Assembly (NCBI GenBank): GCA_951406725.2
Contig: OX597831.1
Span: forward strand, 69,874,001 to 69,938,000
Reading direction: 5' to 3'
DNA: 64,000 nt
Origin: Octopus vulgaris
Taxonomy: Eukaryota
This document shows, in pieces, positions 1,801 to 57,270 of the stretch (its first letter is position 1; each line of letters starts with the position of its first letter). Below the pieces are notes generated by a model. The model did not search any database. It was not told the origin of the DNA and saw only the letters and a program-made list of their open reading frames with translations. A program made the position numbers and the translations under genes.

Positions 1801-3286
1801 ATTTATATTTATATCAGTTTAAACTATTCTAATTTGGAGCGGTCTCTGCAGCATTATCTTGATTGTCATTTGAAGCAATTTCCCTTTTTATATTAATGTA
1901 CTCGGGAATGATATGAACATTACAACTTCCATTTTCCCATTCTCTTAAAATGTGGTACAAAATTGTGATTAACTATGAAAAACTAATAAATAAATTTTCT
2001 GTGAATAAAATAAGCATTGACATAAATTTGACATAACAATTGTATTTGGATTAAATTGAAATATAAAATTACTGAAAATAATAATTGCTGCAAAATAACA
2101 TATGAATAACATTTGTTTTAATTCATTATTGAATTTTAATAATATGGTTGTTTTATCACAATAATTTAAAAATTTTATCATATTTTTGTTTTTTTGTGTG
2201 TTTAATTATTTACTTCCGAGAGTATTAGAAAGAGTTTTTTTCTTTCTTTTGTGTTAATTCAACATTTGACAAATGTTGTTATCAATAGACACCGGAATGT
2301 GTAAAAAAAATAGTTTTCACCACAATTTAGAAATAATTGATGGAAATCAAGCGATTATATCTCTAATGATATTTTATTCTATTTTATTATTTTCTTTTTT
2401 AATATTATAAACACTGTATAACTCTTTCCTAGATAGATTTTCATTAATATCTTTGGACTTGACTCAATGATTATATAGTGGTATCTTTTGATGCATATGA
2501 ATTGCATTAAAATTAATGTTTGCACTAATGTATGATAATGGCTATGATTGAGTCAGTTGACCTAACCATTGATTTGCTGATGCTTTGAGATCACCGACAC
2601 TCTGTGCCTTCTTTTGGTTTGGTGATCTAAAAAATCTGGAAGATCAAGTAAATATACGAAAATGTAGCTGTGATTAAAGATTACTTAGCATACCATTACT
2701 TTATTATATCTAAAAGATAATTAATTTTAATGAAATAGAGGCCATAAACTTACTTTTTCCTGGACGTTCTTGATTTTGTTTTTATTATATGAAGAAGTAC
2801 ATTTGAATTTATTCCTGGTTCTATGAAACTAATAATAAAACGTCTAAGCTTCTACTGTGGATTAAATTCTTAAGATATGTTTGATGATATTTCTTTGAGC
2901 AAGTTTAATCAATTGCACATAATATAGTTCACAATAGCACCAATACAATCTATTGTACATTTTTTCTTTTCTTTCTTTTTATTCATTTACCAATCATACT
3001 ATACGACAAGGATAGAAATCTATACTTTTCTTTGGTGTTCACAGAGAAGGATCAATTTATTAAAATAGTTGCCTGTTATAGGCAAGCAGTAAAGGCCTAG
3101 AAGAATATTAAGATATTTTCAAACAGAATTTCATTCTTTGGCTTTATGCTGTTTTTATTACATTACAGCTTAGAAATATTTTTGCTGTCTGGTGTTCATA
3201 GGTGATGGGGTTGTTTGGTTAGGTTATTGTAGTTACTTGATGAAAAATTCACTTCTATGAAACTTAAACTGATTCAATTATTGCAG

Positions 3287-3359
3287 GCCATTTATTGCAT
3301 TTTACTTTTCTGGATATAGGCGCCAAAACACTTGGACATTTATTCGTAAATTGAAGCAG
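3287..3359 (+). CDS. Candidate internal coding exon of an unidentified host gene, (x)PFIAFYFSGYRRQNTWTFIRKLKQ
   Basis: TTATTGCAG acceptor, CAG|GTATTG donor, 73 nt, open frame, non-repetitive surroundings. Protein not recognised. Confidence 0.4.
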
Positions 3360-4262
3360 GTATTGAAGCAATATATTCTTTAAATAATGGAGGTGAACTT
3401 CTGCAATCAAAATGACAGGAAAAAAAATCTAGAATTTTCTGGTAAAATTATTTTGTGTTTTAAAATGGTTCAGAAATAAAATATTTTAGTCTGCAGGAAA
3501 AATTGTTTTCTAATTTCTAAAATATTGCCATCAGTGATTAAAATCACTTCATAATAAAGTTTTGGGAATAAACCAGAACGTCTTTGATTAAAAGCTGGAT
3601 AACAGAGAAATTATATCATTCATGCAGTTTCTTAGATTATTAGCAAACTCATTATAAGAGCAGATCCTATTATGAAGCACAGCTGATTTATTTGTTTATT
3701 ACACTACAGCAGATACCATAGTAATATAATGCTAACCATTCTTAGATTGGCCATATTCTTATGACCATCTTCTCATTTTTTTCTAGTATAGAGCAAACAC
3801 ATAACAGTTTCCTTCTTGCTAGCAACAACAAAGAAAATCAGCTTTAGCAATTTATCACTCTTGACAACAACATAACACATTGAGGGCACAAAGATATTAG
3901 GAAGTACATACAACACCTCTACAGACATCTCAGCAGATATAGAAGATGTAATAGTAAAAAAACAACATGTAACACCAACACAAATTCCCTCGATTCTTCC
4001 TCTCTGAAGATGGAATAGTTGGCTTTTACATGGAAATCTTTGCACATTCAGATATGTGGCATATGCACAGCTACCCTAGAAACAGCTGTAAGAGACTTTG
4101 TACATTACTTCTTAATCACATATTTTCTCTAACAATTTCGTCTGAATTCTAAATTACATACTCCCAAATGATACCACATATTTTGTATGTTCATTCTTCC
4201 TTTCTAATATATGTGTGTGTTTATACACACATGCACACACACACACACACACACACTATACA

Positions 4263-4289
<27 letters not shown>

Positions 4290-4300
<11 letters not shown>

Positions 4301-4435
4301 ATTGAGGTAATCAGATCAGATGGTTCATATTTGTAGATATTTATTTATATATTACATTTTTTACATATATATCATATCATTCGGATTAGTGCTTGCTCCC
4401 ATTCTAGTGGGTTTTCAAATCTAGTGGGTTTTCAA

Positions 4436-4440
<5 letters not shown>
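4290..4440 (+). repeat. (TA)n-inserted interspersed repeat, same family as 7730-7880 (-) and 56552-56892
   Basis: Shared ATTAGAA..TGAGGTA.TCAGA...GATGGTT.ATATTT..AGATATTTATTT...TTCTAGTGGGGTTTTCAAAT; here with a 17-bp tandem duplication at the end. Confidence 0.7.
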
Positions 4441-4466
<26 letters not shown>

Positions 4467-4497
4467 TACACACACACATATATATATACACATACAT

Positions 4498-5255
4498 ACA
4501 AGGTGTGTCCAAAGAGTATCCAACTTCATTTTCTCCTGCCAAAACTAATGTTGCATGGGCAAAATCTTTTGGCTGGGAGGTGAGGCCATCCTCCCTGTGC
4601 ATGCATGAACATTTTCATGCTGGTAAGTTGCATCAGTCCTTGGCTGTTATGCCTAGTGTACAGATGTGTACTGCAGGGTTGTCAGATTTTCATTTTCAGG
4701 CAAGATGATCCTATACATCGAATAGAGATCAAAAACCCATGTTTCATCACCACTGATGATGGTCACGAAGTCTGGATCATGGTTTGCACAGTCCAACATG
4801 TTCTGAGTGATTTCCATGCTGAGTTGCTCCTGCTGCTCTACCAGCACTTTGGGACCGAATTTTGCTGACACTCTCCTCATGCACACATCTTTCATTGAAA
4901 TGGAATGCACTGACTCCGTGCTTATTCCCACTTCTTGAGCAATTTCCTGGGTTGCTACTCGATAATCTTCATGACCATTTGCCAAACCTTTTGAACTTGC
5001 TTCCCGTTTTGGCTTGTGGAATTCCTGCCTGAGCATGCCTCGTTCTCTACTGTGGTTCAGCTATGTTTGAAGGGGTTGTACCACTCCTTGATCTGAGTTT
5101 TGTTCTTGACACCATCATTGAAGGCTGGAATATTTTGGATGGTTTAAGCTTTTGGCAAAACTTGATGCAATATCTCTGCTTGATGCCTTCTGTGAAAACG
5201 AATATCCAATGAGCATGCACTACATGTCTGTATGTTGGGCATAACAGCCAGAAAC
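4498..5255 (-). mobile_element. Internally rearranged mariner element
   Basis: QRYCIKFCQKL (HTH start), RRVSAKFGPKVL and ISGDETWVF motifs in ORFs 4653-5036 and 5047-5352; 4640-4680 is an inverted copy of 5215-5250. Confidence 0.8.
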
Positions 5256-5525
5256 TAACAATAAACAACACCTTAATAGATAAACCCAAGACTAAAGGAG
5301 TGACATCCTCCTCTTTTGTTAGAAGTAGAGATAATTGGGTCCCTGGAGTCAATCATTCCTTCCCCCTCTACTAACCTCTAATTTTTCTGTCCTCATTAAA
5401 TATACACTATTCTGTTAAAACCATTCTGTCAACTGAAATAGTAGCAAAATCACTGAAAATGTTTTGCTCCATGGATTTTAAACTATGTTAAATCATTTTG
5501 CGTGTCCTTAATTTTAATGTTCATG

Positions 5526-5614
5526 AATTCATCTGATGAAAACGGTTTCTTTATAATGATGTAACATTTTCATTAATCAATTAAAGGAGTCATTTGAAAT
5601 GGCTGTAACAGATT
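5526..5614 (+). ncRNA. Degenerate type I hammerhead ribozyme motif
   Basis: AATTCAT-CTGATGA-AAACGGTTTCTTT...AAAGGAGTCATTT-GAAA-TGGCTG-TA-ACAGATT; stem II pairs 12 of 13 counting G-U; stems I and III eroded. Confidence 0.5.
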
Positions 5615-5916
5615 GACATCTGTACCTCTGCTATTACCCATTTATATTTCATTCACCTGTCTTGGAATCTGCCCTTTGTAAACATGATAGACTGTATATT
5701 TAATATAATGTACATGTCTGATTAGCTCAAGAGCGGATTTCTTCACTCGGCTGAGTCTAATTGTCTACATACACTGCAGGAATATTGACATGTCATAAAA
5801 AAAAACAACATGTAACACCAACACAAATTTCCTTGATTCTTCCTCTCTGAAGATGGAATAGTTGGCTTTTACATGGAAATCTTTACACATTCAGATATGC
5901 AGAATATGCACAGCTA

Positions 5917-20227: not shown

Positions 20228-21730
20228 AAGGCGGCGAGCTGGCAGAGTCATTAGCACGCCGGGCGAAATGCTTAGTGGTATTTCATCTGCTGCTACATTC
20301 TGAGTTCAAATTCCGCCAAGGTCGACTTTGCCTTTCATCCTTTCAGGGTCGATAAATTAAGTACCAGTTATGCACTGGGGTTGATATAATCGACTTAATC
20401 CGTTTGTCTGTCCTTGTTTGTCCTCTCTGTGTTTAGCCCTTTGTGGGTAGTAAAGAAATAGGTATTTCGTCTGCCACTACGTTCTGAGTTCAAATTCCGC
20501 CGAGGTCAACTTTGCCTTTCATCCTTTCGGTGTCGATTAAATAAGTACCAGTTATGCGCTGGGGTCGATATAATCGACTTAATTCGTTTGTCTGTCCTTG
20601 TTTGTCCTCTCTGTGTTTAGCCCATTGTGGGCAGTAAAGAAATAGGTATTTCGTCTGCCGCTACGTTCTGAGTTCAAATTCTGCCGAGGTCGACTTTGCC
20701 TTTCATCCTTTCAGGGGTCGATTAAATAAGTACCAGTTATGCACTGGGGTCGATATAATCGACTTAATTCGTTTGTCTGTCCTTGTTTGTCCTCTCTGTG
20801 TTTAGCCCCTTGTGGGCAGTAAAGAAATAGGTATTTCGTCTGCCGCTACGTTCTGAGTTCAAATTCTGCCGAGGTCGACTTTGCCTTTCATCCTTTCAGG
20901 GTCGATAAATTAAGTACCAGTTATGCACTGGGGTTGATATAATCGACTTAATCCGTTTGTCTGTCCTTGTTTGTCCTCTCTGTGTTTAGCCCTTTGTGGG
21001 TAGTAAAGAAATAGGTATTTCGTCTGCCACTACGTTCTGAGTTCAAATTCCGCCGAGGTCAACTTTGCCTTTCATCCTTTCGGTGTCGATTAAATAAGTA
21101 CCAGTTATGCACTGGGGTCGATATAATCGACTTAATTCGTTTGTCTGTCCTTGTTTGTCCTCTCTGTGTTTAGCCCATTGTGGGCAGTAAAGAAATAGGT
21201 ATTTCGTCTGCCGCTACGTTCTGAGTTCAAATTCTGCCGAGGTCGTCTTTGCCTTTCATCCTTTCAGGGGTCGATTAAATAAGTACCAGTTATGCACTGG
21301 GGTCGATATAATCGACTTAATTCGTTTGTCTGTCCTTGTTTGTCCTCTCTGTGTTTAGCCCCTTGTGGGCAGTAAAGAAATAGGTATTTCGTCTGCCGCT
21401 ACGTTCTGAGTTCAAATTCTGCCGAGGTCGACTTTGCCTTTCATCCTTTCAGGGGTCAATTAAATAAGTACCAGTTACACACTGGGGTCGATATAATCGA
21501 CTTAATCCGTTTGTCTGTCCTTGTTTGTCCTCTCTGTGTTTAGCCCCTTGTGGGTAGTAAAGAAATAGGTATTTCATCTGTCTTCAAGTTCTAAGCTCAA
21601 AAGCTACCAGGGTCGACTTTGTCTTTCATCCTTTCGAGGTTGATCAATACCATTTAGACACTGGAAATGATGTAATCGACTAGTCTCCTTCTCCAAAATT
21701 TCAGGCCTTGTGCCTATTGTAGAAAGGATT
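20228..21730 (+). repeat. SINE-derived tandem array: one head, seven 184-185-bp units, one divergent terminal unit
   Basis: Units start with GGTATTTC at 20277, 20461, 20645, 20830, 21014, 21198, 21383 and 21568; 15-bp TSD ATTATTACTGTTATT at 20213-20227 and 21731-21745. Confidence 0.95.
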
Positions 21731-54189: not shown

Positions 54190-54387
54190 GTATATATAAT
54201 AAATATTAGGGAATAAATCCAAATTTACAGGGAAAAATCAGATTTAGGATTGAATCCAATTTTATAGTAAAATATTATATTATATTAAATTAGAGGCAAA
54301 ACCACTATTATGCAAATCAAACAAAGAAAGACTTAAGCCAATACATAAAATAATTTATATAAATTTAGAAATTTAACAATTATAAAT

Positions 54388-54448
54388 AACCACTACGATC
54401 GTTTCATGTCTTATTTCAGCACATCTTTGAGACATTCTTCAGGTGGTT
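54388..54448 (-). ncRNA. Type I hammerhead ribozyme, intact core
   Basis: AACCAC-CTGAAGA-ATGTCT-(18 nt)-AGACAT-GAAA-CGATCG-TA-GTGGTT; palindromic minimal stem III as described for Penelope-associated hammerheads. Confidence 0.9.
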
Positions 54449-54710
54449 TGAAAACCTAAAATATAATCAATATATTTAAGATATAAATAATCTATATAAT
54501 CTAAATAAAAATTTACTTATAATAAACTCTATTATTAAATATGATTATATCGAAATCGACTATAATGTTAAATATTAAAGTTAATATTTAACATTATAGT
54601 CGATTTCGATATAATCATATTTAATAATAGAGTTTATTATAAGTAAATTTTTATTTAGATTATATAGATTATTTATATCTTAAATATATTGATTATATTT
54701 TAGGTTTTGA

Positions 54711-54771
54711 AACCACCTGAAGAATGACTCAAAGATGTGCTGAAATAAGACATGAAACAATCGTAGTGGTT
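54711..54771 (+). ncRNA. Mirror copy of the hammerhead with two substitutions
   Basis: AACCAC-CTGAAGA-ATGACT...AGACAT-GAAA-CAATCG-TA-GTGGTT. Confidence 0.8.
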
Positions 54772-54874
54772 ATTTATAATTGTTAAATTTCTAAATTTAT
54801 ATAAATTATTTTAGGTATTGGCTTAAGTCTTTCTTTGTTTGATTTGCATAATAGTGGTTTTGTCTCTAATTTAA

Positions 54875-56062: not shown

Positions 56063-56551
56063 TTTGTGTTTTATATATATATATATATATGTACACATTT
56101 CTTTTGCTATGAACATATATATTTATATATATATATGAACATATATATTTATATATGTGTGTGTGTGTGTGTGTGTATGTGTGTGTGTGTGTATGTGTGT
56201 GTGTGTGTGTATGTATATATATATATATATATAAAATCGTTTTGCATGGATGTACACTTTATTTAGAACAGAATGGAGTAAATAGAAAAAGAACACACAT
56301 GAAAATGAAGTGTTGCTGAAGAGATCACAGACGTTTGGTGAAAGATTTCCAGACAATGGACATGTGTTAGAATAATAGAGTAAGAACAATAATAAACAAG
56401 TGAATAAAAAATATATAGTCCATGTGCTTATTTGGCAAAAAATAAATGATCCCAAAATACTATATATATATGTGTGCGTGTATGTGTATATATATATATA
56501 TATATATCTGAAATATATATGAATATAATTATGTATGTATGTATATATATA

Positions 56552-56715
56552 TATTAGAAGAAATGAGATACTCAGAAATTCAGATGGTTTTATATTTACA
56601 GATATTTATTTGTATATTACATGTTTTTATACATCATATAACTTAGATCGTGTGTTAGCGCTTTCTCCCTTTCTAGTGGGGTTTTCAAATCAAACTAAGT
56701 TCCTGTGTGAAAAGT

Positions 56716-56753
<38 letters not shown>

Positions 56754-56887
56754 ACTTTTCACACAGGAACTTAGTTTGATTTGAAAACCCCACTAGAAAG
56801 GGAGAAAGCGCTAACACACGATCTAAGTTATATGATGTATAAAAACATGTAATATACAAATAAATATCTGTAAATATAAAACCATCC

Positions 56888-56892
<5 letters not shown>
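56552..56892. repeat. Near-perfect palindrome (about 140-bp arms) centred on (TA)n
   Basis: 56579-56718 is the reverse complement of 56751-56890 with one mismatch near the outer end. Confidence 0.95.
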
Positions 56893-56942
<50 letters not shown>

Positions 56943-56979
56943 TATATATATATATGAATATATATTTATTTTATAGAAG

Positions 56980-57032
56980 GAGCTTCTACAGGACTAGAAC
57001 TGTTTCATTCAAAAGAAATCATCAGGAAGCTC
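56980..57032 (-). ncRNA. Compact type I hammerhead ribozyme
   Basis: GAGCTTC-CTGATGA-TTTC-TTTT-GAAT-GAAA-CAG-TTCTAGTC-CTG-TA-GAAGCTC; 7-bp stem I, intact core, U-U mismatch closing stem II. Confidence 0.85.
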
Positions 57033-57232
57033 ATATATATATATATATATATGAATATATATATATATGTACCTAGGCATTTATATTAATATGTATGTGT
57101 ATATCTATCTATCCATCTATCCATCTATCTATCTATATATATATAGTTCAAATTTACAGTAAACAAAAGATGAAGACAGGTGTAGGACAACAAGCAGGTG
57201 CATTAAATTAATGTTCAGGAAGAATGGAGAAG

Positions 57233-57270
57233 TCTTTTATGTTTCGAGCCTGCACTCTTTAACAGAAAGA
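57233..57270 (-). ncRNA. Hammerhead-like variant, degenerate
   Basis: TCTTT-CTGTTAAA-GAGT-GCAG-GCTC-GAAA-CA-TA-AAAGA. Confidence 0.4.

What the first reader, a model, noticed from the sequence alone, without database searches (positions are those of the whole stretch)
56965..57032. An insertion that is almost nothing but a hammerhead
About 65 bp of unique sequence between (TA)n tracts, 53 bp of it a compact type I hammerhead with a perfect 7-bp stem I and intact core. On the minus strand the insert starts exactly at the first base of stem I. It is the simplest candidate to test.
Basis: seen in the sequence. Interest (0 to 1): 0.7.

Follow-up and report, generated by a model that had tools for sequence, protein, structure and literature searches.

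The report
Hammerhead at start of Penelope transcript
This 69-base insert is one of thousands of genomic copies of a hammerhead ribozyme motif from a Penelope-like jumping gene, and it is likely a complete DNA copy of the first 68 bases of that element's capped RNA, which would mean the RNA begins with a self-cutting motif; cutting itself is untested.

Summary
The hammerhead layout is real (minus strand 57031-56981), but the sequence is not unique: at least 4,554 arms carry this core. It belongs to a Hydra-clade Penelope-like retroelement that inserts into (TA)n; full-length copies with RT and endonuclease were found. The U-U pair is the family state and common in the clade (14 of 25 published motifs), so it needs no repair. 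Stem I is 6 bp; the seventh pair comes from an extra G absent from the parent. About 69% of arms lack the parent's upstream sequence and pile up at stem I, 29 bases after a TATA box; 50 of 95 AT-flanked copies carry that G, the known footprint of a copied cap. 3' ends fall at two fixed sites (+68, +140), usually one of each per head-to-head insertion. So the insert is likely a full cDNA from the near start site to the cap. A predicted hairpin hides the cut site in RNA longer than 60 nt. No RNA ends or cleavage were measured. The scan noted the paired ends before, in another genome (e1-8804728). New family of a known kind, with useful mechanistic footprints.

The parts
56964..57031 (-). Copy of element bases +1 to +68 (hammerhead plus short 3' end); a solo short arm
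   Evidence: Identical to the full-length copy L071 over 68 of 68 bases
57032..57032 (-). Extra G not in the parent; likely the reverse-transcribed m7G cap
   Evidence: Parent has T here in 44 of 46; G in 50 of 95 AT-flanked copies (hand count)
57026..57031 (-). Stem I 5' strand (6 nt); its first base is the inferred transcription start
   Evidence: TATA box at -29 in the parent
57019..57025 (-). Catalytic core, first half (CUGAUGA)
   Evidence: Sequence
57007..57018 (-). Stem II: U-U next to the core, 3 bp, 4-nt loop
   Evidence: U-U as in 14 of 25 Hydra-clade motifs
57004..57006 (-). Catalytic core, second half (GAA)
56988..57003 (-). Stem III (4 bp) with an 8-nt loop holding the palindrome CUAG; predicted dimer contact
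56986..56987 (-). Predicted cut site, between A17 (+45) and G (+46)
   Evidence: Hammerhead rule (established knowledge); not measured
56981..56986 (-). Stem I 3' strand
56972..56990 (-). Competing 8-bp hairpin (+42 to +60) over the cut site and stem I 3' strand; predicted off state
   Evidence: Pair probability 0.84-0.97 for RNAs of 64-200 nt, against stem I 0.99 for the 51-mer
56890..56963 (.). (TA)n target tract at the 3' end; holds a GA-interrupted unit
   Evidence: a 24-base string ending at 56965 recurs at 57039, a possible target duplication
57033..57068 (.). (TA)n target tract at the 5' end

Best explanation
The insert is a 68-base piece of a Hydra-clade Penelope-like retroelement plus one extra G, and it is likely a complete cDNA copy of the start of that element's capped RNA. 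Shown: the element has one ORF (RT, then endonuclease), a hammerhead in its terminal repeat, a TATA box 29 bases before stem I, and two fixed 3' ends at about +68 and +140; most copies sit in (TA)n as head-to-head pairs with one arm of each length. Inferred: RNA polymerase II starts at the first base of stem I, so the RNA begins with the ribozyme; the element's protein nicks both strands of a (TA)n tract and primes two cDNAs on sense RNA, one at each internal start site; when it uses the sites near the RNA's 5' end, the cDNA runs off after 68 or 140 bases and copies the cap as G. Here only the short arm was kept. Predicted: the ribozyme is mostly held off by a hairpin over its cut site, so uncut RNA is the usual template; when switched on (by dimer formation or by the element's protein) it would cut off the cap with 45 bases, or cut tandem transcripts into units. 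This copy has no promoter and is probably a dead end.
For: Family and parent; Hydra features as defined in PMC8557442 section 11. 5' pile-up: 3,164 arms lack parent sequence at -16 and -13 of the core against 1,390 that keep it. Extra G: base before stem I in AT-flanked copies is G 50, T 19, C 15, A 11 of 95, single G in 48 of 50 (hand count; p 7.5e-9 against 25%). Among 41 copies without A at +1, 13 still carry the G one place further out and 9 carry a single G on +2 (hand count), which fold-back priming does not predict. A full-length copy (L088) starts the same way. An extra G marks full-length L1 and SVA insertions and is attributed to the cap (PMC3287187; PMC11702581). 3' ends: 25 of 48 arms at +66 to +76 and 21 of 48 at +139/140; one long plus one short arm at 32 of 40 short places and 18 of 20 long places (I picked mostly paired places). 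Two pairs among the 100 rows carry the G on both arms. Two internal RT start sites that define the tail, uncut RNA as substrate and a protein-assisted hammerhead were shown in vitro for a Poseidon element (PMC11167929).
Against: No RNA 5' end was seen; only contigs were available, which show no start or strand. Many head-to-head joints sit in the AGCT palindrome of stem I, and 30 of 77 joints at the cut site look like fold-back at stem I, so structure also shapes the 5' ends. 45 of 95 AT-flanked copies lack the G, and 15 have an unexplained C. The D. virilis Penelope promoter is internal and TATA-less, with its start 46 bp before the intron (PMC2377424), and a second hammerhead family in this window gave only 1 AT-flanked match, not starting at stem I, so the layout is not general. 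Folding is a prediction; no cleavage was measured.
Confidence: 0.75

Rival explanations
1. Same element, but stem I is a truncation hot spot and not the RNA start: the cDNA folds back on its own copy of stem I, stops there, and gains the G by self-templated extension.
For: Fold-back would add G first; 30 of 77 cut-site joints look like fold-back; many joints use the AGCT palindrome. Self-priming was proposed for inverted Penelope joints in PMC3846280.
Against: Extension beyond one G is rare (2 of 50); the G persists when +1 is mispaired (13 of 41); a TATA box lies at -29 in 45 of 46 upstream-extended copies; the two arms end at different 3' sites, which one self-primed strand does not explain.
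Confidence: 0.15
2. The short unit is a non-autonomous mini-element (retrozyme- or SINE-like) that is itself transcribed and recopied.
For: Short copies outnumber ORF-bearing ones (3,164 short-start arms; 133 candidates for an RT piece); the hammerhead and tail are far deeper than the ORF in contigs of runs guessed to be RNA; animal retrozymes are reported to derive from Penelope-like elements (10.64898/2026.07.22.740005, part 1 read).
Against: Short copies lack the TATA region; no long tandem arrays were seen in the loci read; short and long copies share the same subfamily variants and the same two 3' ends.
Confidence: 0.07
3. The boundary is a splice acceptor, as in D. virilis Penelope, where the intron ends at helix I; the insert would be a copy of spliced RNA.
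For: The parent has a pyrimidine-rich run and AG two bases into stem I; PMC4209133 reports that arrangement.
Against: No constant upstream exon is seen: copies go from flank straight to the G, which would need a 3-base exon.
Confidence: 0.03

Closest known systems
Hydra clade of C-terminal EN+ Penelope-like elements (Craig et al. 2021, PMC8557442; passages, section 11, supplement parts 2 and 53 and search hits read)
   Same: Single ORF with DKT, RW[K/R], CxCX5C linker, CxxC and CxH motifs, YRDD RT; canonical type I hammerhead near the 3' end, often with U-U beside stem II; (TA)n target; inverted 5' copy and tail.
   Different: Not the published octopus family Hydra-1_Obim (other hammerhead and protein, compared by eye). 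Unit is about 4.3 kb because of a microsatellite-rich 3' UTR of about 2 kb; the tail is about 70 bases, not 30-40. A start at stem I and a cap G are not described in the parts I read.
PAc, Poseidon element of the green anole (Frangieh et al. 2024, PMC11167929; parts 1-2 of 4 read)
   Same: Two internal RT start sites that define the tail; AT-rich target cut on both strands; hammerhead at the repeat-ORF junction; uncut RNA is the template.
   Different: Other clade; there the ORF starts inside the hammerhead, here the ATG is at +183; the transcription start was not mapped in the parts read.
Minimal hammerheads of Penelope-like terminal repeats (Cervera and de la Pena 2014, PMC4209133; parts 1-2 of 4 read)
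   Same: Type I motif in the terminal repeat, many solo or opposite-strand copies, palindromic loop III, weak activity expected.
   Different: Here stem III has 4 bp and stem II only 3 bp with U-U in place of the G10.1-C11.1 pair that they report as highly conserved.
Metazoan non-LTR retrozymes (Cervera and de la Pena 2020, PMC7229834; passages read)
   Same: Short non-coding dispersed copies with a type I hammerhead.
   Different: Retrozymes are tandem 170-400-nt units that make circular RNA; these copies are head-to-head or solo pieces of an autonomous element.

Membership tests
Type I hammerhead ribozyme | Core CUGANGA, GAAA and NUH cut triplet | tested here: met
Type I hammerhead ribozyme | Three stems, open at stem I | tested here: met
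   6, 3 and 4 bp; fold within 0.3 kcal/mol of the minimum for the isolated motif, disfavoured in RNA of 60 nt or more
Type I hammerhead ribozyme | Canonical G10.1-C11.1 pair | tested here: not met
   U-U in all 30 ORF-picked arms; a variant shared with 14 of 25 Hydra-clade motifs that PMC8557442 lists as canonical
Type I hammerhead ribozyme | Structure kept across variants | tested here: inconclusive
   In 30 arms the only recurrent changes inside the motif are at N7 and loop II; no compensatory pair changes seen
Type I hammerhead ribozyme | Self-cleavage | not testable with these tools
   Indirect junction counts are mixed
Hydra-clade Penelope-like element | Single ORF, RT followed by a C-terminal GIY-YIG-type endonuclease | tested here: met
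   endonuclease recognised by motif (YIG) and by likeness to the published Hydra proteins; Pfam gave no relevant hit
Hydra-clade Penelope-like element | RWK motif and DKG changed to DKT | tested here: met
   RWR (as in Hydra-1_Crog) and DKT
Hydra-clade Penelope-like element | CxCX5C linker; CxxC and CxH in the endonuclease; no CCHH | tested here: met
   Read by eye in P0001
Hydra-clade Penelope-like element | Canonical hammerhead near the 3' end and (TA)n target | tested here: met
Hydra-clade Penelope-like element | Generally under 3 kb (a tendency in the paper, not a strict criterion) | tested here: not met
   4,340 bases between hammerheads in L071, owing to the long 3' UTR
Hydra-clade Penelope-like element | RT falls in the Hydra clade on a tree | not tested
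   No tree with the published references was built; 870 unnamed relatives, best ones about 40% identical
Non-LTR retrozyme | Tandem non-coding repeats of 170-400 nt, each with a hammerhead | tested here: not met
   Head-to-head pairs or solo arms
Non-LTR retrozyme | Abundant circular RNA | not testable with these tools
   Only contigs available

The most novel reading that the evidence does not exclude
In this element the hammerhead is the first 51 bases of the capped mRNA and works as a switchable decapping device, held off by a downstream hairpin. Each insertion is built from two sense-strand cDNAs, primed on opposite target strands at the two internal start sites and run to the cap, which would settle the sense-or-antisense question for Penelope head-to-head insertions. 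The single-G losses at +46 and +49, seen mainly in arms copied from the RNA's 5' end, would be scars of RT crossing a cut or protein-held ribozyme, a genomic record of activity in vivo.
Probability: 0.3. Interest if true: 0.7.

Novelty: new member of a known kind. Interest (0 to 1): 0.45.

Why it matters
The motif itself is an ordinary Penelope-type hammerhead. The value lies in thousands of young copies whose ends can be read to the base. They point to the RNA's start, to the two places where copying begins, and to sense RNA as the template of both arms. PMC3846280 left sense versus antisense open, and PMC8557442 calls the role of these hammerheads unclear. A ribozyme at base +1 narrows the possible roles (cap removal, or cutting tandem transcripts) and gives a compact test RNA of under 200 bases.

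Tried and rejected
Chance match: rejected. Decayed copy needing U-U repair: rejected. Naiad or Neptune parent: the YRDD RT with C-terminal endonuclease fits Hydra; the Neptune-like ORF in L064 is a separate insertion into a (TA)n of the element. Cleaved RNA as the main template: arms starting at the cut site are few. 231 arms have a non-G at -3 of the cut; 8 of 30 read were point changes or indels in whole ribozymes. Exact starts with an AT-only triplet number 21 against 5 at a matched control site (p 0.0025, an upper bound since at least 1 was an insertion in a whole ribozyme). But among the first 100 of 501 rows, read by eye, junctions were spread: 15 at -10 to -8, 16 around the cut (6 with 6-base microhomology), 13 at +2/+3. 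Inconclusive. Flank palindrome caused by this insertion: inverted repeats lay near 11 of 120 places against 2 and 4 in two half-size controls, and in 4 of 45 window blocks, and the arms are another high-copy repeat; unproven. Start at stem I in a second family: 1 match, negative. RNA: no RNA holder listed on record; laying contigs gave no starts or strand, and the insert itself was skipped as repeat. Rfam: no hit. Pfam: no relevant hit. Earlier scan notes by sequence: none. PMC5785218 (hammerhead dimers in Penelope-like elements) is not held; I saw only its title in a reference list. Not-in-print statements rest on searches only; the supplement of PMC8557442 is cut and was read in part, and bioRxiv supplements were not seen.

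Full report
Numbering: +1 is the first base of stem I (window 57031, minus strand). Counts marked 'hand count' were read by eye from a tool listing.

Observation. The stretch between the (TA)n tracts at 56890-56969 and 57033-57068 reads on the minus strand as a type I hammerhead: stem I, core CUGAUGA, a U-U beside a 3-bp stem II, GAA, a 4-bp stem III with an 8-nt loop, and a GUA cut triplet. My descriptor found this motif and one other in the window and none in 100 shuffles. Rfam does not recognise it. The isolated 53-mer's hammerhead fold is 0.3 kcal/mol above its minimum; stem I pairs have probability 0.92-1.0, stem III 0.30-0.35, stem II 0.13-0.18.

It is not unique. The window lies in a 2.8-Gb genome. 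An exact 26-base core occurs 1,643 times, control 0. Allowing two subfamily positions, 3,164 arms lack the parent's bases at -16 and -13 of the core and 1,390 keep the upstream sequence exactly, at least 4,554 in all. Most short copies read are head-to-head pairs in (TA)n.

The parent. Longer inverted pairs led to an ORF with a YRDD-type RT and a C-terminal endonuclease. Of 20 further places picked by RT similarity, 6 have the terminal repeat directly before the ORF; the ATG is at +183 and the unit is 4,340 bases in L071. The protein has RWR, DKT, CxCX5C, CxxC and CxH, the features that define the Hydra clade in PMC8557442 (section 11), whose members also target (TA)n. It differs by eye from the published Hydra-1_Obim in hammerhead and protein. 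870 unnamed relatives were found, the best mostly about 40% identical. No tree was built.

The U-U is native. It is unchanged in all 30 arms picked without regard to the ribozyme; the only recurrent changes inside the motif are at N7 and in loop II. 14 of 25 distinct Hydra-clade motifs in the paper's table have the same U-U (hand count). PMC4209133 reports G10.1-C11.1 as highly conserved in other Penelope hammerheads, so this is a clade variant.

Why the insert starts at stem I. The parent has T at -1 in 44 of 46 upstream-extended copies and a TATA box starting at -29. In copies with an AT-only flank the base before +1 is G 50, T 19, C 15, A 11 of 95, and the G is single in 48 of 50 (hand count; this window's copy is one of them). 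Among 41 copies without A at +1, 10 read G-T and 3 G-G before +2, and 9 have one G directly on +2 (hand count). A full-length copy starts with the same G (L088). [quoted passage not shown] I infer that transcription starts at +1 and that these copies are complete, not truncated. Against: no RNA end was seen; fold-back-like joints exist (30 of 77); D. virilis Penelope has a TATA-less internal promoter (passages of PMC2377424). By eye, the two published sea-cucumber Hydra consensuses have a TATA-like run about 30 bases before stem I and an initiator-like CAGTT at its start, while four others are unclear (the initiator consensus is recalled). A second hammerhead family in this window did not show the pattern.

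The 3' ends. 25 of 48 arms end at +66 to +76 and 21 at +139/140; both ends are AT-rich and merge with the target. One long and one short arm make up 32 of 40 short places and 18 of 20 long places (places were picked mostly as pairs). This matches the two internal RT start sites that define the tail of the anole Poseidon element in vitro (PMC11167929) and agrees with an earlier unchecked note on a Hydra-type element in another genome (e1-8804728). Since the start sites lie within the first 140 bases of the RNA as well as at its far end, priming at the near copy gives cDNAs of 68 or 140 bases. The window's insert matches +1 to +68 exactly. A 24-base interrupted (TA)n string recurs on both sides, a possible target duplication. 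PMC3846280 (passages) explained head-to-head joints by self-priming on antisense RNA and left the question open; arms with different 3' ends, and two pairs with the G on both arms among the 100 rows, favour two sense-templated cDNAs.

Does it cut? Unknown. In RNAs of 64-200 nt an 8-bp hairpin (+42 to +60) covers the cut site with predicted probability 0.84-0.97 and stem I falls below 0.1. Two copies are predicted to pair through stem III and its CUAG loop, as proposed for other Penelope hammerheads. Arms that start at the cut are a small minority, and the evidence for an excess there is mixed (21 against 5 exact starts; no clear peak). Indels at +44 to +50, mostly loss of G at +46 or +49, occur in 17 of 133 arms that start at or after +1 against 3 of 103 that extend upstream (p 0.008; 2 poorly aligned arms dropped). 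Loss at +46 borders the cut, loss at +49 does not; nick crossing, hairpin slippage or damage to single-stranded cDNA could each explain it.

Verdict. A real hammerhead motif of a known kind, in a family of Hydra-clade Penelope-like elements that I did not find described. Its copy ends give testable inferences on where the RNA starts and how insertions are built. Interest 0.45.

Noticed in passing
window 56578-56891: A 157-bp, 99% perfect palindrome centred on a (TA)n tract, ending at the tract that holds the insert. The arms are a different, very high-copy repeat. A link to this insertion is unproven.
   Followed up: partly
window 54210-54870: A near-perfect head-to-head palindrome of about 330 bp per arm with a second type I hammerhead family (54448-54388 minus, intact; 54711-54771 plus, with point changes): 6-bp stem II, palindromic stem III without loop. 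One search found no sign that its copies start at stem I.
   Followed up: partly
window 57242-57261 (minus) and 56316-56350 (plus): Worn hammerhead-like core words in two other high-copy repeats, probably ends of other Penelope-like families.
   Followed up: no
window 20277-21635: Tandem array of 7.4 copies of a 184-bp unit, 94% alike; it resembles a cephalopod SINE (recalled, not tested).
   Followed up: no
G000, listing: 10 of 41 copies have T in place of A at +1 while keeping the extra G, more than later mutation would give; possibly misreading of a methylated cap-adjacent A (speculation).
   Followed up: partly
element +46 and +49 (window 56986, 56983): Recurrent single-G losses, mainly in arms copied from the RNA's 5' end (17 of 133 against 3 of 103); unexplained.
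   Followed up: partly
L071 element +74 to +96 and +145 to +158: A small predicted hairpin follows each of the two 3' end sites, each trailed by a similar CCTTAT word; candidate signals for the RT start, as suggested by e1-8804728.
   Followed up: partly
L064 (reverse strand about 3250-5800): A Neptune-like Penelope element inserted into a (TA)n tract inside this element's 3' UTR (the clade label rests on recalled motifs).
   Followed up: no
L061, L066 3' UTR: About 2 kb of the element is mixed TA/TG microsatellite that travels with it, so the element spreads its own target sequence.
   Followed up: no
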